Virus genome (UHGV): UHGV-0322013
Origin: a virus
Length of the DNA: 31,976 nt
Direction: 5' to 3' (one strand)
Below the pieces are notes generated by a model. That model ran no database searches. It saw nothing but the letters and a program-made list of their open reading frames with translations, and was not told where the DNA came from. The position numbers were made by a program, and so were the translations under genes. Shown one piece after another: positions 1 to 21,673 of the stretch. The stretch's first letter is position 1; every line of letters starts with the position of its first letter.

Positions 1-174
1 GAATTCAGCACGATTATGAACGAGCACGAATGGCCTGCTGATGCTATTGAAGTGCAACTGGCACATGCCAACGGCGGATCTGTGCGCGGGATTTACAACC
101 ATGCTCAGTATCTCGATAAACGCAGAGAAATGATGCAGTGGTGGGCGGACTGGATTGATGAAAAGGTAGAGTGA
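1..174 (+). CDS. int: Tyrosine integrase, C-terminal fragment (P4/IntA-type); the 5' part of the gene lies beyond the window
   Basis: Frame 1 reads through from base 1 to TGA at 172-174: EFSTIMNEHEWPADAIEVQLAHANGGSVRGIYNHAQYLDKRREMMQWWADWIDEKVE, matching the conserved C-terminus of P4-family integrases as recalled. Window starts at GAATTC. Confidence 0.8.
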   Translation, partial: EFSTIMNEHEWPADAIEVQLAHANGGSVRGIYNHAQYLDKRREMMQWWADWIDEKVE

Positions 175-198
175 GCGACCTTAACAACTATCGAATAG

Positions 199-247
199 CA
201 CAAAGCCTTGCAGTCCAGTACAAAGCTTTGTGTTCATCATTTTTGTC
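199..247 (+). terminator. Inverted repeat (8-bp arms CACAAAGC / GCTTTGTG, 18-nt spacer) followed by a T-rich run, just downstream of int; possible int terminator and/or part of attP
   Basis: Read directly: cacaaagc-cttgcagtccagtacaaa-gctttgtg then ttcatcatttttgtc. Confidence 0.3.
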
Positions 248-302
248 TCATCAACCACAGTAAGTCATCGATCGATTAAGAATTTGATGATAGTTTTGTC
301 AA

Positions 303-2219
303 CTATAGCAATCTTATTTCTCCACCATGAACATTTATTGGCGTCATAAGAAGTGGACTCTCTACTACGACAAACCCATTTTCATTACTTATAACCGGGG
401 TCTTTGATTCATCAGATGTTGAAATAACCATCGCTTTATCTCCTGCCACAACACCTAACCAAAACCATGTCCCTAAGTTATGATCTATCTTCAATGCTAA
501 AAAAATAAGCTGTGTATCAGAGTATTGTATTTGCGTTGTCCATTTTGCTCTAGTGTCTGAACCTGAAACCTCTGTAGAAACACTTGCGCCAACTGTATGT
601 GCAGCGGAGCTACCGTTACTCATTTTACCGTTAACAAGTTGCGGGTGGTATTTGCTTGTTTGTTTTGCTTTTCCTATCACTGAACTAAGACCTAAATCCG
701 GGCTATAGAACACTATTGTCTGTTCCACTGTGCTGGCTTCTTTTGCCACTACTGCCGGCAATGTAGTCCCTCCGGCCTTAATGTCAGTTTGCCAGTGAAT
801 ATCTGAAAGATTGTATGGAGATCCCTCGTTAATGTCCCACCAAACCGCTCCGCCACCTATACGGTTATTAGGCATAATTCTTACGTTGGTATTGTCGTCG
901 AATGCACCAAACATTTTCATACTGCTACCGTAAATCCAGCAGTTATCCAGCGTAATGTTATTGGCGCTCGTTGCTATAACCCCATACACATTGCTTTCGT
1001 TTGACTCTATGTAGCATGAATCAAACTTGATGTTATATGCACCTGCAATCCAAACACCGTGAGTACGAAAACTTTCAATACCACAGTTGAACAGCGTAAG
1101 TGCCTCTACCGCACCTTCAAACTTAAAACCTACATCACACTCTCCTGTGTGAACCGATACTAATGGCTGAATGTTGCATTCATCAGTAAAGTGATAGCGA
1201 TGCAGACCAGTAGTATATGTACCATTGCACTGAAGATTTCGAAATAAAGAGTAAAAGCAGCGCTGAGTGTAAACCAACTGCTGGACATTTACTCCAACAA
1301 TATCTGTAACCTCGCATCCAAATACATGATTCCGCAAACGTAACCCCTGATAGAAATTAATCAGTGTGGCATTGCGAATTATTGTTCCTATGGTTAGATA
1401 CTCTTCACCAGACTTTCCAAATACAGAAGATATAGCACCACTAGAAGCTATATAACCAGTCTCAATGAATACGTTATTTTCGTCGGAAGTATCGTCGCGG
1501 CCTACGATGCGAGCGCCCTGAAAATCGATCACTTGCACCCGACGATTAGGGAAATTAGTTGCTTCAATGTCAGATGGAGATTCTGAAGCCAACACATAAA
1601 CTTTACCAGCGATGTAATAGCTTTTCCACGGAGTGGCTACTACTTTAACACCACCTGCACGCCACGCAGCAATCAGAGCGGCCTGAAATGCGTATGTGTC
1701 GTCATGCTTGCTTGGGTTATCTTCTCCGTTTAATAAGTAGGCATCGCCATACGCACCAAAGTCATCTACATTAATTTCCTGATTAAAGTAGTCAGATGCT
1801 TTTCTGGTTGCAGCATCAGCATAAGGCTTCTTAAATGAAATATAAGAAGCACCATCATCAGATGATAATCGCGAAGAAAGTTGATCAGGGTCATACTTCA
1901 GCACATTAGGAAAATAGAATTGCCGCGCTCCATACGCATCATAAACAGCCATAGAGTGGCCTTGCACAGTTACGAACTTGGCAATCTGTCCGTTATATAC
2001 CGGATATCCGGCAGCGTTAATGATGATTGGTTGCGAAACAGGAACGCGAGAGCCGTCTTCGTTCTCTACATAAACCTGAACCCGGTTTTCAGGATTTACC
2101 GGGTCAGTGTCAATTTTCCCGATATAAATTTCGCCATTGGCTACGGCTTTAAAAGAACGCGCCATAGTGAAGAGTTGAGAAGGCATCGATACAATCACAT
2201 TGGCTGTAATGTCTGTCAT
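303..2219 (-). CDS. Tailspike protein: P22 gp9-like N-terminal head-binding domain with a divergent C-terminal receptor-binding (probable polysaccharide depolymerase) domain
   Basis: 638-aa ORF; the N-terminal ~110 aa ([29 protein letters not shown]...[13 protein letters not shown]...NVLKYDPDQ) match the P22 tailspike head-binding domain from memory; the rest is unrelated to P22 gp9. RBS GGAG upstream of ATG. Confidence 0.9.
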
Positions 2220-2275
2220 TTAATTTGCTCCAGATACAAGGAATCGCCGCAGCATGGCCACGGTGAAATTTGGGC

Positions 2276-2300
2276 ATAAAAAAACCCAGCCTAAGCTGGG
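2276..2300 (-). terminator. Rho-independent terminator between ant and the tailspike gene (P22 T-ant analogue)
   Basis: Minus strand reads CCCAGC-TTAG-GCTGGG followed by TTTTTTT. Confidence 0.6.
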
Positions 2301-2319
2301 TCGTTGCGTTGGTTATCTG

Positions 2320-3255
2320 TCAGTAGTTATGTACTGAAGGAGGTAATTCTTTATTCTTAAGTCTCATCCATGCGGAAAGATTCGTTGGTCCGTCTGGCTC
2401 ATTAATATCAACATCTCGTGTGTGATTGATTAAAACGTCTCTCGCCATTCCGATAACATACGAGAACTCATGACCGTAGTCGTAGCATCTGCCTGAATAG
2501 TTCGATTGAATTTGTTTTAGCGCCGGATACAGTTCGCGGAATAATGCCTGTGAGCGGTTGGCATAATCCCATAACCATACAAGGCTGTTTGCTTCTTTTG
2601 CAGAAAGCTCGTTGGTTTTCTTCTCTTGTTTGCCGATGAACTCGCCTTCGAGCGGAACGCGAGCTGCAAGTGACAGTGCTTCGGCAAACTGCTCCTCACT
2701 GATTTCTTTGTACGAACATCCAAAATGGGATTTCAGTGACGACCACATGGTGATCATCGCCTTAGCCTGTTTTTCTTTTGGCAGAGACTGACCGCGACTC
2801 ATGACGAGTTGTTTAATGGCTTCCTGCTGTTCAGTGGTGATTTTACCAGGCAACGCCTTTTTAGCTTTGCGTGGGTTAACTACATGGCCTTTAGTCCAGT
2901 AGTCATGCAGCACGCTAAAGCATTCCTCCTGGTACTGAATCAGTTTATCACGGATGTCAGCACGAACTTTCTCAGGGTTGATGCTGAACAGCCATCCATT
3001 TAACTTCTTCAAAGGAAGGCAGAGTAGCTTACGAAGCTTCCCATCAGCGGCAACCATGTTCATATGAACACAGTTGAATTTGCTAATCTGCTTCATGAGT
3101 TTTGTTTGCTGCGTTGACCAGCTCATTCCAAGGTTTTCAACGATTGGCTTCATCGCAACATATGCAACTCCGGCAGCCATGGCGGTGATAATTTGCTGAC
3201 CGTTGAATGGTACGTAAGAGGTGTTCACTGCTTCTAAAATTGCTATACTATTCAT
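2320..3255 (-). CDS. ant: Antirepressor Ant (P22 immI type)
   Basis: Track ORF 2320..3321; start placed at internal ATG ([46 protein letters not shown]...) which matches the P22 Ant N-terminus and has a GGAG RBS; 311 aa. Confidence 0.85.
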
Positions 3256-3320
3256 GTTGGTTTTTCTCCACGGATTTACTGACAACCGAAGCCCTGACTG
3301 TTCCCGCAGTTGGGGCTTCA
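3250..3320 (+). ncRNA. Candidate sar-like antisense RNA covering the ant ribosome-binding site (arc-ant intercistronic region)
   Basis: Plus strand has a TATACT -10-like hexamer inside the ant 5' end, then sequence antisense to the ant RBS and a stem (GAAGCCC / GGGCTTC). By analogy to P22 sar; boundaries are approximate. Confidence 0.3.
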
Positions 3321-3323
3321 ACT

Positions 3324-3485
3324 TTACGCGCCAATGCGCCCTTCCTTCTTAAAGCTGTCCATTACTCTCTGATAAATCTCAGAGTTAACAGATCGACCAT
3401 TCTCTTCCGCCACCTTGCGTACCAAATCCAATACTTCTTTAGGCCACCGCAAATTGAACTGCGGCATTTTGCTCATTCCTTTCAT
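3324..3485 (-). CDS. arc: Arc repressor (ribbon-helix-helix)
   Basis: Internal start of track ORF 3324..3548 gives [53 protein letters not shown] (53 aa), near-identical to P22 Arc as recalled. Confidence 0.9.
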
Positions 3486-3575
3486 ATTCACCTCACAATA
3501 TGGGTCCACCGTGGACCTATTGAGAATATAGTAGAGTGCTTCTATCATGTCAATACACTAACTTGGAGTGATGGC
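3486..3575. promoter_or_regulatory. immI divergent promoter/operator region: Mnt operator palindrome (about 3502-3518) and Arc operator (about 3528-3548) overlapping Pant and Pmnt
   Basis: GGGTCCACCGTGGACCT is a perfect palindrome matching the P22 Omnt core; ATAGTAGAGTGCTTCTATCAT is the reverse complement of the 21-bp P22 arc operator as recalled. Confidence 0.75.
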
Positions 3576-3827
3576 ATGGCTAGAGATGATCCGCACTTTA
3601 ACTTCCGTATGCCTATGGAAGTAAGGGAGAAATTAAAATTCAGGGCGGAGGCGAATGGGAGATCAATGAACTCTGAGTTGTTACAAATCGTCCAAGATGC
3701 TCTATCAAAACCATCGCCTGTGACTGGATATCGTGACGATGCAGAACGACTCGCTGATGAACAGTCAGATCTTGTTAAGAAGATGGTGTTTGATACGCTG
3801 AAGGATTTGTACAAAAAACCCACCTGA
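3576..3827 (+). CDS. mnt: Mnt repressor (ribbon-helix-helix; maintenance of lysogeny)
   Basis: Internal ATG of track ORF 3207..3827 gives MARDDPHFNFRMPMEVREKLKFRAEANGRSMNSELLQIVQDALSKPSPVTGYRDDAERLADEQSDLVKKMVFDTLKDLYKKPT (83 aa), matching P22 Mnt; GGAG RBS 8 nt upstream. Confidence 0.9.
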   Translation: MARDDPHFNFRMPMEVREKLKFRAEANGRSMNSELLQIVQDALSKPSPVTGYRDDAERLADEQSDLVKKMVFDTLKDLYKKPT

Positions 3828-3845
3828 AGGTGGGTCCTATTTATT
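3812..3845. terminator. Bidirectional rho-independent terminator between convergent mnt and the lipoprotein gene
   Basis: AAAAAACCCACC-TGAA-GGTGGGT then CCTATTTATT; the mnt stop codon TGA is the hairpin loop; A/T runs on both sides. Confidence 0.6.
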
Positions 3846-4263
3846 AGTCTTGCTTTGTTGATGGTATAAGAGATGCGTTTGCCTCTTTTGGCTTCAAGGT
3901 ATACATTCCACCATTAAATGGATCTACAGCAAGCCAACCAATTAACCCACCAAACACAAGGTTCCCACCAATATACCAACCATTAGCATTGGCTTTGATT
4001 GGCAGGGTAACTGGTTCATACCCATCCTTCTCCATAGTGATCTGGTAGCTCTTTTTGCCAAAATAGCTACCATCTGACTTGGCGAGTGTTACACCTTGTG
4101 GGGTCTTACCTTGCGCAACAATCACACCTGACTCATCTTTTACCTTAAAGCTCGCGCCAGAAGGATTGCTGTTCACTTGCACAAGTTGCGTTTCATCACC
4201 AACAATAGTTGCGCACCCAGATAACATGATAACGCCAGCGACGACGCTAATAATCCTCTTCAT
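3844..4263 (-). CDS. Lipoprotein of unknown function (PEGA-like beta domain, Gly-rich hydrophobic C-terminus); accessory gene in the P22 sieA position
   Basis: Track ORF 3844..4275; likely start at MKRIISVVAGVIMLSGC (signal peptide with lipobox LSGC). The mature part shows a PEGA-like pattern (VQVNSNPSGASFKV...GKTPQGVTLAKSDG...DGYEPVTLPI) and ends GGNLVFGGLIGWLAVDPFNGG. Confidence 0.7.
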   Translation of the reverse strand: MKRIISVVAGVIMLSGCATIVGDETQLVQVNSNPSGASFKVKDESGVIVAQGKTPQGVTLAKSDGSYFGKKSYQITMEKDGYEPVTLPIKANANGWYIGGNLVFGGLIGWLAVDPFNGGMYTLKPKEANASLIPSTKQD

Positions 4264-4380
4264 ATCAATTTCCATATTAAAAAAAACGGAAACATCCTAA
4301 TGACAAACCATTCAAATGTGAAGTAGGCAAAAGATGTTTACTTTTTTCATGGTATCCTGCTCAAAACTAAGGAGGTTGGT

Positions 4381-4704
4381 GTGTATACAACAGTTATCGT
4401 GATAGCTATCGCACTCATTGTGGTTCAGTATCAACTGGCATCTTTAAAACAAAAGATATTTGACCTCAAGACTGAGAACGAAGCACTTAAAAACTCAATA
4501 AAAGATGAGAAGAACAAACTATCATTCACTATATCTGATATTGAGCAATCCATTGAAATTATTGAGAATAATATTAACAGACTAAAAAAAGAAGATATTC
4601 ATGAAATCAATAACAATATCAAGGATTTGAAATCTTGGATTAGGAATGTAGGACAAATCTCCACATCAACACGAGATAAGCTCAATCCATCCATGGATGA
4701 CTAA
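4381..4704 (+). CDS. Small membrane-anchored coiled-coil protein, unknown function (AT-rich accessory gene)
   Basis: 107-aa ORF with GTG start 5 nt after AAGGAGG; N-terminal hydrophobic helix (YTTVIVIAIALIVVQY) then heptad-like K/E/N-rich sequence; very AT-rich; on the opposite strand to the flanking late genes. Confidence 0.6.
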   Translation: MYTTVIVIAIALIVVQYQLASLKQKIFDLKTENEALKNSIKDEKNKLSFTISDIEQSIEIIENNINRLKKEDIHEINNNIKDLKSWIRNVGQISTSTRDKLNPSMDD

Positions 4705-6816
4705 TTACTCCTGTGCCATTCCGCTTAGCGATGCCACAATTCCAGCCCTCGCTAAACGCTGGAACTCTTCGTTTCCTAGTGCATCGCGTATTGCTTTTAC
4801 GGCGGCTTTATTTGCCATAAATCTGCGTTCCGCCGCCGCTAATGCTTCTTTACTTCCGCCAGATCTTACTGCTTTCGTGGCTTCCTGAACTGCTTTCTCT
4901 ATCGCATATCGACCACTACGTGTGGTGGCAATTTTAGATACAGCACCTTTTAACCCGGCGCCAACTAAAGCACCTGCGGCAGCGCCTGCAATGCCCCCTC
5001 CTGCTCCACCAACAATGGCACCTGATGTTGAGTTGGCAATTGCATTTAACACTGTTGATGTGACGTTGGATAAACCGGCATCCAGATCGCGTAGTACATT
5101 GGCAGTTCTCCCTGTTCTTTCAATATACTGCTGAGGTTTCACTGCTGCTCTTGCAAGAGTGCCATATGCATCAGCAATTCTTCCGAGTTCTGAGGAATAT
5201 CTGCTAATGGCTTTTACATTTTGTGGGGTAAGTATCCCTGCGATATGGTTAATTCCTGCTGCATCAGATTTGCCACCACGTACACCATGCGAGATAGCAT
5301 CCTGCAACATTGATGATATAGCAGGAACACGCTCTGATTCTGGCAGCGCGCGGATCATAGAATGGAATCCAGCAGGACCATTAAGACCTTTAGCTGACGA
5401 TGATTGAAGAGATTTTACTCCATTCGTAATCAGTGCATCTGTTGCCAAATCACGCCCAAAGACAGACTCTGCACTCTCTTGTGCGGATAACCTCGCTTTA
5501 GACAGATCATTAGCTTTTTGCCAGTCATCAAGAAATCCGCCGTTTTCCGCCATTGTGCGCATATCATCAGTAATTGCCCGGCGTATTTCCCCTGCTCTCC
5601 TTGCCGCATTTGCCTCTCCGCTACGCTTATATTTTTGCTCCGCATCAGCAAATTTCGCTCTCCATGCTTTCATGCCATCAAATGTTACTCCACCTTGATT
5701 GTTTGCCTGAACAAACTGTTTCATTTCAGGAGTAAGCGGTATGCCAGCAGATCGCTCAGCCTGAATAACGGCATTACCATTTAGCATTCTTGCTTTTTGA
5801 TTTGGCATTGTTGACCGCACGTCATCCCATGCCGCGCGCTCGGCATCCTTCATCTGATCAAGATTTTGAAGAATCCTTTGTTTTATAGCCGCACTTTTTT
5901 CTGAGGCTGTTCCAGATGCTGCCCCAAATTCATCAAGGTTTCGACTTAACTTTGATGATATTTCGTTAAATGCTGCCTGATGGGCGTCCTGAACAATTCC
6001 TGGTGTTGATGCCAATGCGCCTTCTGCTTGTGCAATTCCACGACTTCCAGATCGCATTCCTGGTGTTAATGCGTTTATATCAATTCCAGCAGACTCAGCC
6101 GCTTTTGCTACATCTTCTGACACATTAGCGGCCTGACTGGCAATTGACTGACGCCCAGAACCTGACTTTGCCATCCTGGAAACATCATTAGCAGAATTCA
6201 GTGCTGCACCACCAAGAGCCTGTGAAACCCTTGGCGCAATAACGCGCTCGACACCTGAAAGAACGCCTTGAGCACCAATATTGATACCACCGTTAATGGC
6301 AGCATTTTGTGCAAAATCACCCTCCTGATTTGCAGCATCAGCAAGAGAACCTGCAATCATGTTTCCTGCGGAACCGATGTCTCCTGCGAGCTTTGCTGGC
6401 GATCCAGCAGCTTTTGCCGCTGTGCCAATTGGCAGGAGATACCCACCAATTGTTTCACCAGCTTGCGCGTAAGGGTCTGTCGGTCGATCGACTGGACGAT
6501 AGACATCATCCAAAACCTTGGGGCCACCAAGCCCCTGGCTGATTGCATTAATCAGACTTGCGCCACCCTGCAATACGTCAAATGGTATGTTTACCAGACC
6601 ACGGCCAGCCTGTTCTGCAATTTGCCCTGCGCTTTGACCACCAGTGAGCCAGTCAGTGGCTTTTCCTACCAGAGATTGTTCTTCTGGCTGCGATTGGTTT
6701 TGAGTGGATTGATCACCAGAAGACAGCATCTGAGCAATGCGACGTGCTCCCTCAGTATCACCGGCAGCATCAGCATTCCTTAATGCCGTCATCAACTGTT
6801 CGCGACTATAGGCCAT
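4705..6816 (-). CDS. Ejection/internal virion protein, P22 gp16-like (703 aa, longer than P22 gp16)
   Basis: Position after gp20 and Gly/Ala-rich sequence typical of P22 gp16; N-terminus [31 protein letters not shown]. Confidence 0.8.
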
Positions 6817-10098: not shown

Positions 10099-11516
10099 TA
10101 CTCAATCCTTATCTGAGCGCCTGACAGAGTGACAGGTGACTTCGTGATAACGCGCAATTTGAAGCCGACATTTTTCCTGATGCGCCCTACTCTCTTCCAC
10201 AAAACACGCTTGTCGTAAACGAACGGTTCATTCTGCTCAATCATCTGCTCACGACCGTAATTGATGCCATCAGTGGTTGCCGAGAGGAACAGGCGGTCGG
10301 CGTACTGAGCGACACCCGTCGATGATTCCACCTCCAGATCAAAGCATCTGGCGTTATCTGCTTTGAAGAGTGGAGTAAACAGCAGGTGTTCTTGCTGTAG
10401 CCCATACTGGCTGCTGATGTCGAACTGCAATTTTCCGGTCACGGACTCCAGCTTATCGCCGCACGTTATCTGATTGCCTTCGTAAATGAAGTCGATAGCG
10501 CGGTACACATCGTCATACAGGCCTGTTTTCAGCACACACCATTGCGGACCATTGGCGCTTGAAGATGCATCGTACACAAGGACGTGACGCGGAAGATGGA
10601 TAATCAGCAACTCATGCGCATCAAATCGCAGAGACTCCATCACACCATCAGCCAGTTCATCAGCAGTGTAGGAGCGGAGGATTTTCTCAATGCTCGCGCT
10701 GGCGATTGGTGATACCTGACCTGAGCCGATGATGTATACAGACGGCGCACCCGTTGCCGGATTGCTGATAAACGCATAGGAATCAGCAAACGGCGTTTTG
10801 CAGTAAGTCCCGGCGATGCCTTTTTGCACCATCAGTGATGGCTGTGCGACATACAAAGCGGCACCAACGGTGGTTGCGCCAGTCAGGGAGAAATATTCAA
10901 TCGTCGATGAGCCAAAGCAAACGATGAAGTCTCGCCATGTACCTATGCCGATGATGCCGTCCGGCTGCGATTCTGCGCGATATTGTGCGCTGTAACGGTC
11001 AGGATGCGATTCGTCTTCAAGGTCAGTGATAAACCACGAATCAGTTCCGTCTTTTGACCACGCATAACGCCCACGTAAGCGTGTAATGTCGCGGACTGAA
11101 CCTAACTCGTACTGTGTGAATCCGCTGTCTGTAGGCCAGTTTGAGACAGTTTTAACCGTGCCATCATAGCGATACTCGACCAGTTGACCATTAACACCTA
11201 CAGCCTGAGATGTCCGACCATGCGCCATTGATACGCGACCACTTCCGGCGACGTCACCGACTTCGCTTTCGCCTTTGTAAAGCTTCCCACCACACACGCG
11301 ATAAACAGCATTCTGCGCCATGTTGTACTCGACTCCGCGCGATACACCGTTTACATCAGAGCGTTTGGCAATGCCCGGGAATGAGCGAAGATATCCGCTG
11401 CTGTTAAGGATTTCTTTGGGTGTAGCCAACATATTCACTGGTAGATAGTCGATATAGTCGGCATTTCGGAAGTCTTTGCCGACACCTTTCATGAGCGGAA
11501 GTTGCTGAATCGGCAT
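10098..11516 (-). CDS. Tail accessory protein, P22 gp10-like
   Basis: 472 aa, same length as P22 gp10, in the conserved order. Confidence 0.85.
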
Positions 11517-20455: not shown

Positions 20456-20893
20456 TCATTTCAGGCACTGCGTGTTGATATATTCCTGCAGGTAGTTAAC
20501 CTGCGCGGTTATCTTGTCGATTCCACTTCGGAGACGGTAATAATTGAGTTCAGCATCTGCTGTAAGTCCTGGGCTTTCTCCATCGCCCATGCCGCTGGCT
20601 CCGGTCGTTGACTTTGCACAGGTGGCGGCGACTTGCAGGCGCTTACGCCCAGCAGAAACATCAGCACGGAGACTTTCAATAGTCGCGTTAGCATCAGCAA
20701 GCTCCTTTGTGTATCTGGCGTCAAGTTCTGCTACATCACGTTGACGCTTCTGCATGTCAGCGATTGTGGATGTGGCCTTATCGCGCTGTTCTTTATAGGC
20801 GATGGCGTTATCACGGTAATGATTAACAGCCCATGACAGGCAAACGATGATGCAGATAACCAGAGCGGAGATAATCGCGGTTACTCTGCTCAT
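20456..20893 (-). CDS. Rz: Spanin inner-membrane subunit Rz (lambda-like N-terminal half, divergent C-terminal half)
   Basis: [31 protein letters not shown] matches lambda Rz as recalled; the rest diverges; 145 aa. Confidence 0.9.
20509..20694 (-). CDS. Rz1: Spanin outer-membrane lipoprotein subunit Rz1, embedded in the +1 frame of Rz
   Basis: Internal start of track ORF 20509..20724: [20 protein letters not shown]... with lipobox and proline-rich segment, as in lambda Rz1. Confidence 0.75.
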
Positions 20894-21366
20894 ACCTCAA
20901 TCTCTCTGACCGCTCCGCCAGCCTCTTTGAATTTTGCAATCAGGCTGTCAGCCTTATGCTCGAACTGGCCATAACCAGCACCCGGCAGTGAAGCCCAGAT
21001 ATTGCTACAACGGTCGATAGCCTGACGGATATCACCGCGATCAATCATCGGCAAAGCGCCACGTTCCTTAATCTGCTGCAGCGCAACAGCGTCCTGGCTT
21101 TTGGGAGAGAAGTCTTTCAGGCCAAGCTGCTTACGATAGGCATCCCACCAACGGGAAAGAAGCTGGTAACGTCCGGCTGCTGTTGATTTGAGCTTTGGGT
21201 TTAGCGTGACAAGTTTGCGAGGGTGATCGGAGTAATCAGTGAATAGCTCTCCGCCTACAATGACGTCATAACCATGATTTCTGGTTTTCTGACGTCCGTT
21301 ATCAGTTCCCTCCGACCACGCCAGCATATCGAGGAACGCCTTACGTTGATTATTGATTTCCACCAT
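20890..21366 (-). CDS. R: Endolysin R (lytic transglycosylase), lambda R
   Basis: 158 aa, [49 protein letters not shown]... essentially identical to lambda R as recalled. Confidence 0.95.
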
Positions 21367-21673
21367 CTTCTACTCCGGCTTTTTTAGCAGCGAAGCGTTT
21401 GATAAGCGAACCAATCGAGTCAGTACCGATGTAGCCGATGAACACGCTCGTTATATAAGCGAGATTGCTACTTAGTCCGGCGAAGTCGAGAAGGTCACGA
21501 ATGAACCAGGCGATAATGGCGCACATCGTTGCGTCGATTACTGTTTTTGTAAACGCACCGCCATTATACCTGCCGCGAAGGTACGCCATTGCAAACGCAA
21601 GGATTGCCCCGATGCCTTGTTCCTTTGCCGCGAGAATAGCGGCTAACAGGTCATGTTTTTCTGGCATCTTCAT
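21350..21673 (-). CDS. S: Holin/antiholin S (S107/S105 dual start), lambda S
   Basis: 107 aa starting [34 protein letters not shown]; upstream sequence TTATTGGGGGTAAGACATGAAGATGCCAG as in lambda. Confidence 0.95.

What the first reader, a model, noticed from the sequence alone, without database searches (positions are those of the whole stretch)
3844..4704. Divergent AT-rich gene pair (PEGA-like lipoprotein plus membrane-anchored coiled-coil protein) in the P22 sieA position
Between the gp16 gene and immI, where P22 carries sieA, there are two genes transcribed away from each other from a ~105-bp AT-rich spacer. One is a lipoprotein with a clear lipobox and a Gly-zipper-like hydrophobic C-terminus; the other is a GTG-initiated 107-aa protein with an N-terminal TM helix and a long predicted coiled coil. 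Their composition, own promoter region and placement in a known superinfection-exclusion hotspot suggest a two-component envelope module (exclusion, receptor masking or conversion), but neither resembles SieA.
Basis: partly seen in the sequence, partly recalled or inferred. Interest (0 to 1): 0.65.

Follow-up and report, generated by a model that had tools for sequence, protein, structure and literature searches.

The report
Two independent prophage envelope-protein cassettes
Both genes are real but are separate accessory genes, not a matched pair: one is a wandering prophage outer-membrane lipoprotein, and the other sits behind the same control sequence as the P22 exclusion gene sieA, making it a testable candidate for a new phage-exclusion protein.

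Summary
A 139-aa lipoprotein gene (3844-4263, -) and a GTG-initiated 107-aa gene for a membrane helix plus coiled coil (4381-4704, +) diverge from a 33% G+C spacer, between gene 16 and immI of an E. coli P22-like prophage.

Both genes are already published with unknown function. They are Salmonella phage epsilon34 genes 15 and 14 (98.3% nt identity); gene 14 is the HK620 hkcB homologue.

They are not a two-component module:
- Only 10 of 5426 complete E. coli genomes carry both.
- The lipoprotein pairs with at least five different neighbours.
- hkcB often occurs without it.

The lipoprotein has a PEGA/transthyretin-like beta-sandwich and a conserved Gly-rich hydrophobic segment. Its relatives occupy moron slots in other prophage types.

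hkcB is the true counterpart of sieA. It has the same orientation, and its roughly 45-nt leader, including the GTG start, is near-identical (one substitution) to the one upstream of P22 sieA. That leader precedes at least 12 unrelated small ORF families, 11 of them membrane or exported. hkcB is under purifying selection, and its stop codon always abuts that of an HK620/CUS-3-type gene 16.

The most likely function is prophage-expressed envelope modification or exclusion. This is inferred, not shown.

The parts
3844..4263 (-). Lipoprotein gene, 139 aa from the second ATG (the ORF extends to 4275). It is the epsilon34 gene 15 homologue and belongs to PHROG 6823. Layout: signal peptide with lipobox LSGC, then a PEGA/transthyretin-like beta-sandwich (residues 24-93), a Gly-rich hydrophobic segment, and two returning strands (121-131).
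4213..4215 (-). Codon of the lipobox cysteine (Cys17 of the 139-aa form). It is followed by Ala-Thr, so there is no Asp at +2. By the E. coli Lol sorting rule this implies an outer-membrane lipoprotein.
   Evidence: read directly; invariant C17 and A18; the sorting rule is established knowledge, not tested here
3901..3984 (-). Conserved hydrophobic Gly-rich segment, residues 94-121 (NGWYIGGNLVFGGLIGWLAVDPFNGGMY). It is the family signature GWYxxGNLxFGGLIGWLxVDPxTGAM. It is probably a membrane-inserted re-entrant or oligomerising element.
   Evidence: most conserved block; pLDDT <50 for residues 96-112, flanked by confident strands; mean hydropathy 1.38 over residues 96-113
3818..3843 (.). Bidirectional intrinsic terminator shared by mnt (+) and the lipoprotein gene (-). 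On the - strand the stem GACCCACC/GGTGGGT is followed by TTTTTTG.
   Evidence: annotated as a terminator in epsilon34
4294..4322 (-). Promoter-like site (TTCACA-17-TAGGAT, 9 of 12 matches) upstream of the lipoprotein gene. This is a consensus-level match only.
   Evidence: the count of such sites is not above the shuffle expectation
4338..4383 (+). Shared cassette leader ACTTTTTTCATGGTATCCTGCTCAAAACTAAGGAGGTTGGTGTG. It contains an extended -10-like TGGTATCCT, the Shine-Dalgarno AGGAGG and the GTG start. It is near-identical (one substitution, T/A) upstream of P22 sieA, and a 29-nt core of it precedes at least 12 unrelated ORF families.
4381..4704 (+). hkcB homologue (epsilon34 gene 14, PHROG 5962), 107 aa. 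Layout: transmembrane helix at residues 1-21 (Q16 and Q18 invariant), a continuous heptad coiled coil at about residues 22-85 (Asn33 at an 'a' position), and a conserved tail SW(I/L)(K/R)NVGxIxxSTRDK(L/I)NPSxD(D/N).
4702..4707 (.). Stop-to-stop junction TAATTA, where the hkcB stop codon directly abuts the stop codon of convergent gene 16. A zero-nucleotide gap was found in all 8 hand-examined loci and all 14 IMG/VR loci. No intrinsic terminator follows on the + strand.
4705..6816 (-). Gene 16, the DNA-transfer (ejection) protein, 703 aa, of HK620/CUS-3 type. This is the only gp16 type found next to hkcB.
3256..3827 (.). The flanking immI control elements that bound the lipoprotein cassette: sar RNA (3256-3323, +), arc (3324-3485, -) and mnt (3576-3827, +).

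Best explanation
The finding is two independent accessory ('moron') cassettes sitting side by side in the hypervariable region between gene 16 and the tailspike gene of an E. coli P22-like prophage.

**Cassette 1, the lipoprotein.** It is a mobile gene co-oriented with the late operon and ending at its own terminator.
- Shown: a lipobox, a PEGA/transthyretin-like beta-sandwich, and a highly conserved Gly-rich hydrophobic segment.
- Shown: enterobacterial relatives lie in accessory slots of unrelated prophages. One slot is between the tail chaperone and tape-measure genes, which is the position of the HK97 gp15 exclusion moron. Others are between tail genes I and J, and after the Q gene.
- Inferred: it is an outer-membrane inner-leaflet lipoprotein whose hydrophobic segment dips into the membrane or drives oligomerisation. 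It would alter the envelope of the lysogen, and of the late-infected cell. The most likely effect is to hinder the trans-envelope DNA-delivery step of incoming phages.

**Cassette 2, hkcB.** It occupies the sieA expression slot.
- Shown: the leader, Shine-Dalgarno sequence and GTG start are near-identical to those of P22 sieA (one substitution in about 45 nt), and the gene has the same orientation, convergent on gene 16.
- Shown: the gene is under protein-level purifying selection. It occurs only next to HK620/CUS-3-type gene 16, with a zero-nucleotide gap.
- Inferred: it is made in the lysogen as sieA is. It would anchor in the inner membrane as a coiled-coil oligomer. Its conserved tail would then interfere with the gp16/gp20 ejection conduit of superinfecting P22-like phages that carry this type of ejection protein.

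The two products do not need each other.
For: **Identity.** The region is 98.3% identical to epsilon34 genes 15 and 14, which were published as function-unknown members of the 'ant moron'.

**Independence of the two genes.**
- The pair is in 10 of 5426 complete E. coli genomes, against 123 with the lipoprotein allele and 155 with hkcB.
- The lipoprotein combines with at least five different downstream cassettes.
- Phages exist with only one of the two genes.

**Lipoprotein.**
- The AlphaFold model has mean pLDDT 75.6, with the sandwich above 90.
- PEGA hits occur in 10 of 44 relatives.
- Every sampled genomic context is a prophage. Two of these contexts coincide with the HK97 moron sites gp15 and gp22/23.

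**hkcB.**
- P22 sieA is likewise convergent on gene 16 and has the near-identical leader.
- In 80 IMG/VR loci the leader precedes 12 unrelated families, including SieA with its FGRYPGEAxGFNK motif. 11 of the 12 have a transmembrane segment or signal peptide.
- dN/dS is 0.13-0.45 overall. It is 0.05-0.18 for the transmembrane helix and 0.07-0.30 for the tail, at synonymous divergence up to 0.8.
- The stop codon abuts the gene 16 stop in 8 of 8 and 14 of 14 loci, always with the same gp16 type.

**Precedents at this slot.** Two known exclusion factors at this position both act through gene 16.
- SieA escape mutations map to the C-terminal regions of gp16 and gp20 (PMC10883804).
- The BTP1 antisense RNA STnc6030 has escape mutations at the 3' end of the gene 16 homologue (PMC7067206).
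Against: - No functional data exist for either protein. PADLOC gave no meaningful hit (none for the lipoprotein, only weak coiled-coil matches for HkcB), and both PHROG families have unknown function.
- Guilt by position is weak evidence. One of the 12 cassette families is a soluble protein, and other ant-moron genes are not exclusion genes.
- HkcB topology is unresolved. No positive charge precedes the helix, while K23, K25 and K30 follow it. HK620 HkcB has Glu3 before the helix. The positive-inside rule therefore places the coiled coil in the cytoplasm, not the periplasm.
- Promoters are consensus-level guesses only. Expression in lysogens has not been shown for these genes.
- The strict HkcB-gp16-type association could be simple linkage, because the recombination boundary lies inside the 3' end of gene 16.
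- The lipoprotein family is very large (5188 representative clusters). Most members probably have nothing to do with phages.
- No promoter-like site was found for the homologues in lambda-like contexts.
Confidence: 0.5

Rival explanations
1. The lipoprotein and HkcB would form an obligate two-component envelope module, with an outer-membrane lipoprotein and an inner-membrane coiled-coil protein bridging the periplasm as spanins or exclusion complexes do.
For: - The genes are adjacent and divergent around one spacer.
- An outer-membrane lipoprotein plus a protein with an N-terminal transmembrane helix and coiled coil superficially resembles Rz1/Rz. There are weak PHROG Rz-like hits at E 0.008-0.08.
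- The pair recurs in epsilon34, in 10 E. coli genomes and in a Salmonella contig with a 58%-identical HkcB allele.
- 8 of 13 HkcB loci in IMG/VR have the lipoprotein.
Against: - Each gene occurs far more often without the other.
- The lipoprotein partners with at least five unrelated cassettes, and also sits alone in siphovirus prophages.
- CUS-3, SEN22 and HK620 lack the lipoprotein.
- The phage has its own holin, endolysin and Rz cassette at 20456-21673.
- HkcB topology may place the coil in the cytoplasm.
Confidence: 0.06
2. The lipoprotein would be a host-fitness (lysogenic conversion) factor rather than an anti-phage factor. Like lambda Bor, it would strengthen or remodel the outer membrane, for example for serum, bile or detergent resistance or for adhesion.
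For: - The family is widespread in non-phage bacteria (5188 representative clusters, including Zoogloea and Acinetobacter).
- The domain is a generic surface-protein fold.
- It is carried by prophages with different receptors and tail types. This argues against blocking one specific receptor.
- HK97-like prophages that carry it also carry a porin moron.
Against: - Its slots coincide with known exclusion-gene positions: the HK97 gp15 site and the P22 ant moron.
- There is no homology to Bor/Iss, Lom, TraT or any virulence factor in Pfam, NCBIfam or PHROGs.
Confidence: 0.25
3. The hkcB locus would act mainly through RNA. Its transcript would run without a terminator into the 3' end of gene 16 and act as an antisense exclusion RNA, like STnc6030 of the P22-like prophage BTP1.
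For: - The orientation and position match those of STnc6030. Its escape mutations map to the 3' end of the gene 16 homologue.
- The hkcB stop codon abuts the gene 16 stop codon, and no intrinsic terminator follows within about 1.2 kb.
- The junction and the gene 16 3' end are conserved.
Against: - The ORF is under clear protein-level purifying selection, with many synonymous changes in the transmembrane and tail regions.
- It has a strong Shine-Dalgarno sequence and a conserved start.
- The same slot encodes the protein SieA.
- An antisense tail could still add to the protein's effect. The two mechanisms are not exclusive.
Confidence: 0.12
4. HkcB would serve the phage's own cycle rather than exclusion. 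For example, it could modulate gp16 function or export, lysis timing, or cell division of the lysogen.
For: - It is strictly linked to one gp16 type.
- There are weak DivIC/FtsL-type matches to residues 5-45.
Against: - hkcB is anti-sense to the late operon, so late transcription opposes it.
- Phages with the same gp16 type do without it: Dewey, Huey, Louie and phiSG1.
- The FtsB comparison gave an hhalign probability of 0.4%.
Confidence: 0.07

Closest known systems
P22 SieA (inner-membrane superinfection exclusion protein; PHROG 7745; Leavitt et al. 2024, PMC10883804)
   Same: - hkcB lies in the same slot between gene 16 and immI, with the same orientation convergent on gene 16.
- The roughly 45-nt leader, Shine-Dalgarno sequence and GTG start are near-identical, with one substitution.
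- Both are small membrane proteins encoded by P22-like prophages.
   Different: - There is no sequence similarity.
- SieA has about 4 hydrophobic segments and the FxRYPxEAxxFNK motif. HkcB has one transmembrane helix, a roughly 65-residue coiled coil and a different conserved tail.
- SieA sits 22 nt from a P22/A35-type gene 16. HkcB sits 0 nt from an HK620/CUS-3-type gene 16.
- The function of HkcB is untested.
Salmonella phage epsilon34 genes 14 and 15, and HK620/CUS-3 hkcB (Villafane et al. 2008, PMC2629481; GenBank EU570103, AF335538, CP000711)
   Same: These are the same genes. The whole 1.3-kb region is 98.3% identical at the nucleotide level. By tblastn the lipoprotein is 100% identical to its epsilon34 counterpart and HkcB is 95% identical.
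   Different: - The window is an E. coli prophage with a different tailspike and a mosaic backbone.
- Those papers list the genes as function unknown. They do not describe the shared leader or how the cassettes assort.
HK97 gp15 moron (inner-membrane exclusion protein encoded between the tail chaperone and tape-measure genes; Cumby et al. 2012, cited in PMC10883804)
   Same: Relatives of the lipoprotein (69% identity) occupy exactly this slot in HK97-like E. coli prophages. Both are small envelope proteins inserted in a structural operon, next to the gene for the DNA-conduit protein.
   Different: - The sequences are unrelated, and gp15 is 62 aa.
- gp15 is an inner-membrane protein, whereas this is a predicted outer-membrane lipoprotein.
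- The parallel is positional only.
Exclusion lipoproteins Cor (phi80/N15/HK022) and Llp (T5)
   Same: They are phage-encoded outer-membrane lipoproteins that protect the cell at the entry step. This is what the lipoprotein may work like.
   Different: - Only the signal peptide and lipobox match: PHROG 1119 at E 0.0016 over residues 5-24, and NCBIfam Cor at E 0.078.
- The mature domain is unrelated and about twice as long.
- Cor and Llp block FhuA, but this gene is carried by phages with various receptors.
BTP1 STnc6030 antisense exclusion RNA (Owen et al. 2020, PMC7067206)
   Same: It is a prophage-expressed transcript in the anti-late orientation that ends over the 3' end of the gene 16 homologue. 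The hkcB transcript has the same geometry and no terminator.
   Different: STnc6030 has no ORF longer than 60 aa. hkcB is a conserved protein-coding gene.
Two-component spanins Rz/Rz1
   Same: The architecture is superficially alike: an inner-membrane protein with an N-terminal transmembrane helix and a coiled coil, plus an outer-membrane lipoprotein.
   Different: - The genes here are divergent and independently assorting, and they lie outside the lysis cassette.
- The phage has a true Rz, PHROG 13 at E 7e-73.
- The lipoprotein is a folded 123-aa domain, not a short Pro-rich peptide.

Membership tests
SieA superinfection-exclusion family | Sequence homology to SieA types A, B or C, including the motif FxRYPxEAxxFNK and about 4 transmembrane segments | tested here: not met
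   BLASTP of HkcB and of the lipoprotein against P22 SieA gave E >= 0.04, with only 10-31 residues aligned. HkcB has one hydrophobic segment, against four in SieA.
SieA superinfection-exclusion family | Genomic slot: between gene 16 and gene 9 of a P22-like phage, convergent on gene 16, behind the sieA leader | tested here: met
   This is met for hkcB only. The orientation matches, and the roughly 45-nt leader including the GTG is near-identical, with one substitution.
SieA superinfection-exclusion family | Blocks DNA entry of P22-like phages when expressed alone | not testable with these tools
   This needs plating and DNA-entry assays.
Bacterial lipoprotein (Lpp-type signal peptide) | N-terminal signal peptide ending in the lipobox [LVI][ASTVI][GAS]C | tested here: met
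   The sequence is MKRIISVVAGVIMLSG|C. Cys17 is invariant in 28 of 28 homologues.
PEGA domain (Pfam PF08308) | Score above the Pfam gathering threshold | tested here: inconclusive
   The window protein scores 17.5-17.6 bits against a cutoff of 20.8 (E 0.004). However, 10 of 44 family relatives hit PEGA (best E 5e-9), and the model has the matching beta-sandwich fold.
Moron (independently transcribed insert in a phage operon) | Present or absent between genes that are adjacent in related phages | tested here: met
   Dewey, Huey and Louie go straight from gene 16 to the tailspike gene. The slot contents differ between relatives.
Moron (independently transcribed insert in a phage operon) | Own promoter and own terminator | tested here: inconclusive
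   A terminator is present at 3818-3843. Promoters are consensus-level only and are not above the shuffle expectation. No promoter-like site was found for lambda-context homologues.
Two-component spanin (Rz/Rz1) | Paired genes in the lysis cassette that are co-oriented and co-inherited | tested here: not met
   The genes are divergent, lie outside the lysis cassette and assort independently. A separate Rz is present.
Cor/Llp exclusion lipoproteins | Homology of the mature domain | tested here: not met
   Matches are confined to the signal peptide, residues 5-24 and 5-33.
FtsB/FtsL/DivIC divisome coiled-coil proteins | Profile-level homology | tested here: not met
   Pfam DivIC gave E 0.0028, below its cutoff. 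hhalign of the HkcB alignment against E. coli FtsB gave a probability of 0.4%.
Known anti-phage defence systems (PADLOC-DB 2.0) | Match to any defence-protein model | tested here: not met
   There was no hit for the lipoprotein. HkcB gave only weak coiled-coil noise, E >= 8.5e-4.

The most novel reading that the evidence does not exclude
The sieA slot of P22-like phages would be a cassette-exchange locus. One conserved promoter/leader ending in a GTG start would act as a fixed recombination and expression anchor, and at least 12 unrelated small envelope proteins are swapped in behind it.

Many of these would be uncharacterised exclusion factors aimed at the ejection-protein conduit. HkcB would define a new single-pass coiled-coil class matched to HK620/CUS-3-type gp16. 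In published experiments, phages with HK620 ejection proteins partly escape SieA.

The PEGA lipoprotein would be a second, outer-membrane layer of entry block that hops between podovirus and siphovirus prophages.
Probability: 0.3. Interest if true: 0.65.

Novelty: new member of a known kind. Interest (0 to 1): 0.42.

Why it matters
The two genes themselves are not new. They have been in GenBank since 2001 (hkcB) and 2008 (epsilon34 genes 14 and 15), with unknown function.

What the follow-up adds is a concrete, cheap experiment. hkcB and at least ten other small membrane or exported ORF families are expressed from essentially the same leader as sieA, the one characterised exclusion gene of this locus. 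The published sieA assay can therefore be applied directly. That assay uses a single-copy insertion with about 100 bp of native upstream DNA, a plating panel, and hybrid phages with swapped ejection proteins.

A positive result would give new classes of DNA-entry blockers for short-tailed phages. It would also help to explain why genes 16 and 20 are so variable.

The lipoprotein is one of the commoner uncharacterised prophage cargo genes in E. coli. One related cluster, P0063 (69% identical), is listed in 710 data blocks of the assembly collection. Its signature motif has no Pfam family.

Tried and rejected
1. FtsB/FtsL/DivIC mimicry by HkcB. This was suggested by weak Pfam/NCBIfam hits and a shared L-Q-Y in the transmembrane helix. 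It was rejected because hhalign gave a probability of 0.4%.
2. Spanin pair. Rejected on several grounds: a real Rz cassette lies elsewhere in the window, the genes are divergent, and they assort independently.
3. Cor-like homology of the lipoprotein. Only the signal peptide matches.
4. The idea that the alternative 161/171-aa gene beside the lipoprotein in Gally and EC32 is a SieA type. It is another lipoprotein, PHROG 6067, with no similarity to SieA.
5. Paralogy of either protein to gp16, gp20 or any other ORF in the window. None was found.
6. Solved-structure relatives by sequence. The lipoprotein has none, and HkcB gives only generic coiled coils.
7. BFVD fold search. It found one unnamed viral homologue and generic sandwiches.
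8. The AFDB50 fold library was unavailable.
9. The leader pattern has no exact match in the one-genome-per-species GTDB collection. It has at least 80 matches in IMG/VR.
10. Rfam finds only sar RNA in 2000-6000. Nothing lies in the target region.
11. Literature searches for hkcB, 'ant moron', PEGA lipoprotein with prophage, and P22-like exclusion found no functional study of either gene.
Full report
**1. Observation**

The window carries a 143-codon ORF at 3844-4275 (-) and a GTG-initiated 107-codon ORF at 4381-4704 (+), diverging from a short spacer.

- **Lipoprotein ORF.** Its likely start is the second ATG at 4263, giving 139 aa. Every homologue, and the epsilon34 annotation, begins there. 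The product starts MKRIISVVAGVIMLSG|C, which is a textbook lipobox. It contains the hydrophobic Gly-rich stretch NGWYIGGNLVFGGLIGWLAVDPFNGGMY.
- **Second ORF.** It has AGGAGG 5 nt upstream of the GTG. It has one strongly hydrophobic N-terminal segment and an uninterrupted heptad pattern from about residue 22 to 86, with Asn33 at an 'a' position. AlphaFold models it as a single helix covering residues 2-101, with pLDDT 73.
- **G+C content.** hkcB is 32.1% and the spacer 33%. The lipoprotein gene is 44.3%, against 47.4% for the window. Only half of the pair is clearly AT-rich.
- **Flanks.** On one side lies gene 16 (4705-6816, PHROG 770, DNA transfer protein). On the other lies an intact immI region. 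It comprises mnt at 3576-3827, arc, sar RNA at 3256-3323 (Rfam, 95.6 bits) and ant.

**2. Identity**

- The 1.3-kb region is 98.3% identical to Salmonella phage epsilon34, where the ORFs are genes 15 (lipoprotein) and 14. Gene 14 is the homologue of hkcB of HK620 and CUS-3.
- Villafane et al. 2008 (PMC2629481) described both genes as function-unknown members of the 'ant moron'. This is the hypervariable insert between genes 16 and 9 of P22-like phages.
- The window as a whole is a mosaic E. coli Lederbergvirus-type prophage. Its closest relatives are HZ41, IME10, Dewey and CUS-3.
- No paper in the searchable library reports a function for either gene.

**3. Are they a module? No**

- Among 5426 complete E. 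coli genomes, the lipoprotein allele is present in 123 and hkcB in 155. Both together are found in only 10, even with sensitive blastn.
- CUS-3, SEN22, HK620 and several metagenomic prophages have hkcB with other neighbours.
- Gally, vB_EcoP-720R6 and many E. coli prophages have the lipoprotein with another gene in place of hkcB.
- A Salmonella contig combines a 99%-identical lipoprotein with a 58%-identical HkcB. A mosaic joint therefore lies in the spacer.
- In IMG/VR loci the lipoprotein lies upstream of HkcB (8 of 13), a 129-aa secreted protein (7 of 12), a 62-aa membrane protein (3 of 9), a 75-aa membrane protein (1 of 6) and others. It was never upstream of SieA (0 of 5).
- The phage also has its own holin, endolysin and Rz cassette at 20456-21673. 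The pair is therefore not a spanin.

**4. The lipoprotein**

- **Family size.** A word-indexed search found 715 relatives. These are mostly 137-aa proteins of Enterobacterales, with some in Pasteurellaceae. An exhaustive profile search found 5188 representative clusters at E <= 1e-3, reaching Zoogloea and Acinetobacter.
- **Family signature.** The family shares a lipobox, a beta domain and the signature GWYxxGNLxFGGLIGWLxVDPxTGAMxxLxP. No Pfam model covers this signature.
- **PEGA domain.** PEGA (PF08308) is sub-threshold for the window protein (17.5-17.6 bits against a cutoff of 20.8). It is hit by 10 of 44 relatives, with best E 5e-9.
- **Structure.** The AlphaFold model (mean pLDDT 75.6) has a confident sandwich at residues 24-93. 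The hydrophobic segment 96-112 is unconfident (pLDDT <50). Two strands at 121-131 pack back on the sandwich. This geometry makes a re-entrant or oligomerising hairpin more likely than a membrane-spanning helix.
- **Sorting.** Ala at position +2 predicts Lol sorting to the outer membrane. This rests on established knowledge and was not tested here.

All five sampled genomic contexts of enterobacterial and Pasteurellaceae relatives are prophages:

| Context | Host |
|---|---|
| Between tail chaperone T and the tape-measure gene | HK97-like E. coli prophages |
| Immediately before the tape-measure gene in two of three loci sampled; among other accessory genes in the third | Proteus prophages |
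| Between tail genes I and J | Pseudescherichia |
| Downstream of Q, next to an antirepressor gene | Actinobacillus |
| Ant moron, between gene 16 and immI | P22-like prophages (this window) |

Two of these sites are exactly the HK97 moron sites. HK97 gp15, a published exclusion protein, lies between T and H. HK97 gp22/23 lie between I and J. In every context the gene is co-oriented with the late genes.

The gene is rare in isolated phages, appearing in 4 of 50,697 records. It is common in prophages.

**5. hkcB**

- **Distribution.** The family is tiny, with 18 clusters among 5.8 billion proteins. It is confined to P22-like phages.
- **Junction with gene 16.** In 8 loci examined by hand and 14 IMG/VR loci, its stop codon directly abuts the stop codon of convergent gene 16 (TAATTA, zero spacer). 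That gene 16 is always of the roughly 700-aa HK620/CUS-3 type. The same gp16 type also exists without hkcB in phages that lack the whole insert.
- **Conservation.** The transmembrane helix (Q16 and Q18 invariant) and the C-terminal tail are conserved. The coil is variable.
- **Selection.** Nei-Gojobori estimates give dN/dS of 0.13-0.45 overall. The transmembrane helix gives 0.05-0.18 and the tail 0.07-0.30, at synonymous divergence up to 0.8. The conservation is therefore at the protein level and is not just DNA linkage to gene 16.
- **Topology.** This is unresolved. There is no positive charge before the helix, while K23, K25 and K30 follow it. In HK620 HkcB, Glu3 precedes the helix. The positive-inside rule therefore favours a cytoplasmic coil.

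**6. hkcB sits in the sieA expression slot**

- P22 sieA is likewise convergent on gene 16.
- The 45 nt upstream of hkcB (window 4338-4383) are ACTTTTTTCATGGTATCCTGC(T/A)CAAAACTAAGGAGGTTGGTGTG. This stretch includes an extended -10-like TGGTATCCT, the Shine-Dalgarno sequence and the GTG start. It is near-identical upstream of P22 sieA, with one substitution.
- The E. coli megablast first flagged this as a 34-50-nt island shared with otherwise unrelated loci. An alignment confirmed it.

The ORFs that start right after the leader fall into 12 unrelated families:

| Family | Loci |
|---|---|
| HkcB | 16 |
| 129-aa secreted protein | 15 |
| 62-aa membrane protein | 9 |
| Second 109-aa transmembrane helix plus coiled-coil family (PHROG 8100) | 9 |
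| 75-aa protein with two hydrophobic segments | 6 |
| SieA, with its FGRYPGEAxGFNK motif | 6 |
| 149-aa membrane protein | 5 |
| 116-aa membrane protein | 3 |
| 106-aa membrane protein | 3 |
| 99-aa secreted protein | 3 |
| 140-aa soluble protein | 3 |
| YobH-like 68-aa protein | 2 |

- Ten families have at least one strongly hydrophobic 17-residue segment, and one more has a signal-peptide-like N-terminus.
- None of the families scanned against PHROGs has a known function.
- Each cassette keeps a characteristic distance to gene 16: 0 nt for HkcB, 22 nt for SieA, 24 nt for the 129-aa protein and 17 nt for several others.
- The slot is therefore bounded by a conserved leader on one side and the 3' end of gene 16 on the other.
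- The CUS-3 record annotates 'boundary sequences' in this region. The concept of short conserved linkers is thus not new, but I found no description of this particular one.

**7. Mechanism (inference)**

Two exclusion determinants are already known at exactly this position and orientation, and both act through the ejection proteins.

[quoted passage not shown] Its escape mutations map to the C-terminal regions of gp16 and gp20, and it is active when cloned with its native upstream DNA.
- The BTP1 antisense RNA STnc6030 is highly expressed in lysogens. Its escape mutations map to the 3' end of the gene 16 homologue.

Given the shared leader, I infer the following for HkcB:
- It is made in the lysogen.
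- It forms an inner-membrane-anchored coiled-coil oligomer.
- It uses its conserved tail to disturb assembly or function of the gp16/gp20 conduit of incoming P22-like phages.

No intrinsic terminator follows hkcB, so an added antisense effect on gene 16 mRNA is possible.

For the lipoprotein I infer an outer-membrane inner-leaflet protein. Its Gly-rich segment would insert or oligomerise, and it would either hinder trans-envelope DNA delivery or act as a Bor-like host-fitness factor.

None of these functional steps is shown.

**8. Verdict**

- The genes are already catalogued.
- The 'two-component' reading is not supported.
- The 'exclusion hotspot' reading is strengthened. It is now sharpened into a directly testable hypothesis for hkcB, plus a previously unremarked cassette slot that shares the sieA leader.

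Noticed in passing
L007:4645-4977 and 5001-5324; IMG/VR loci: A second family with a transmembrane helix and coiled coil (PHROG 8100, 109-110 aa) uses the same leader in other phages. In one contig it sits in tandem immediately upstream of hkcB. Its N-terminal half aligns with HkcB residues 4-54 (hhalign probability 77%, E 2e-5), but its C-terminal half is unrelated. This may be a domain-swapped relative.
   Followed up: partly
L010, L012, L013 (about 10260-11420): HK97-like E. coli prophages carry the lipoprotein homologue between the tail chaperone and tape-measure genes. They also carry a porin gene (Pfam Porin_1/Porin_4) inserted between tail genes M and L. That makes two envelope morons in one tail operon.
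   Followed up: no
L025:332-1356 (E. coli strain 400660): In this P22-like prophage the space between mnt and the sieA-type slot holds a YafO-family toxin gene and a 188-aa hypothetical gene. The slot itself holds a YobH-family 68-aa gene behind the shared leader.
   Followed up: no
L003:3640-4155; L024:4069-4554: Gally and E. coli EC32 have a different 161-aa lipoprotein next to the PEGA lipoprotein, in the anti-late orientation. It begins MKKSLLIIPLLLAGC, has a Q-rich helical region and belongs to PHROG 6067. It has its own upstream sequence rather than the shared leader.
   Followed up: partly
L030 (E. coli isolate A357, NZ_CM163381.1): This is the closest match to the pair, at 99.7%. The pair lies directly beside the tailspike gene with no mnt, arc or ant. 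The prophage is next to ybhB and the bio operon. The pair therefore travels without immI.
   Followed up: no
window 4705-6816 compared with L002 and L004: My global alignment gives 78% identity between CUS-3 and HK620 gp16. The SieA paper states they are only 26% identical. I did not resolve the discrepancy. It matters for arguments about which ejection protein determines SieA escape.
   Followed up: no
window 1-2219: The window starts in the 3' end of an integrase gene (ORF 16-174, matching the Dewey integrase). It is followed by a 638-aa tailspike with the P22 head-binding domain. The receptor-binding part is a beta-helix that differs from that of epsilon34.
   Followed up: no
window 3256-3323: A full-length sar antisense RNA (Rfam RF00262, 95.6 bits) confirms an intact P22-type immI control region next to the finding.
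   Followed up: yes
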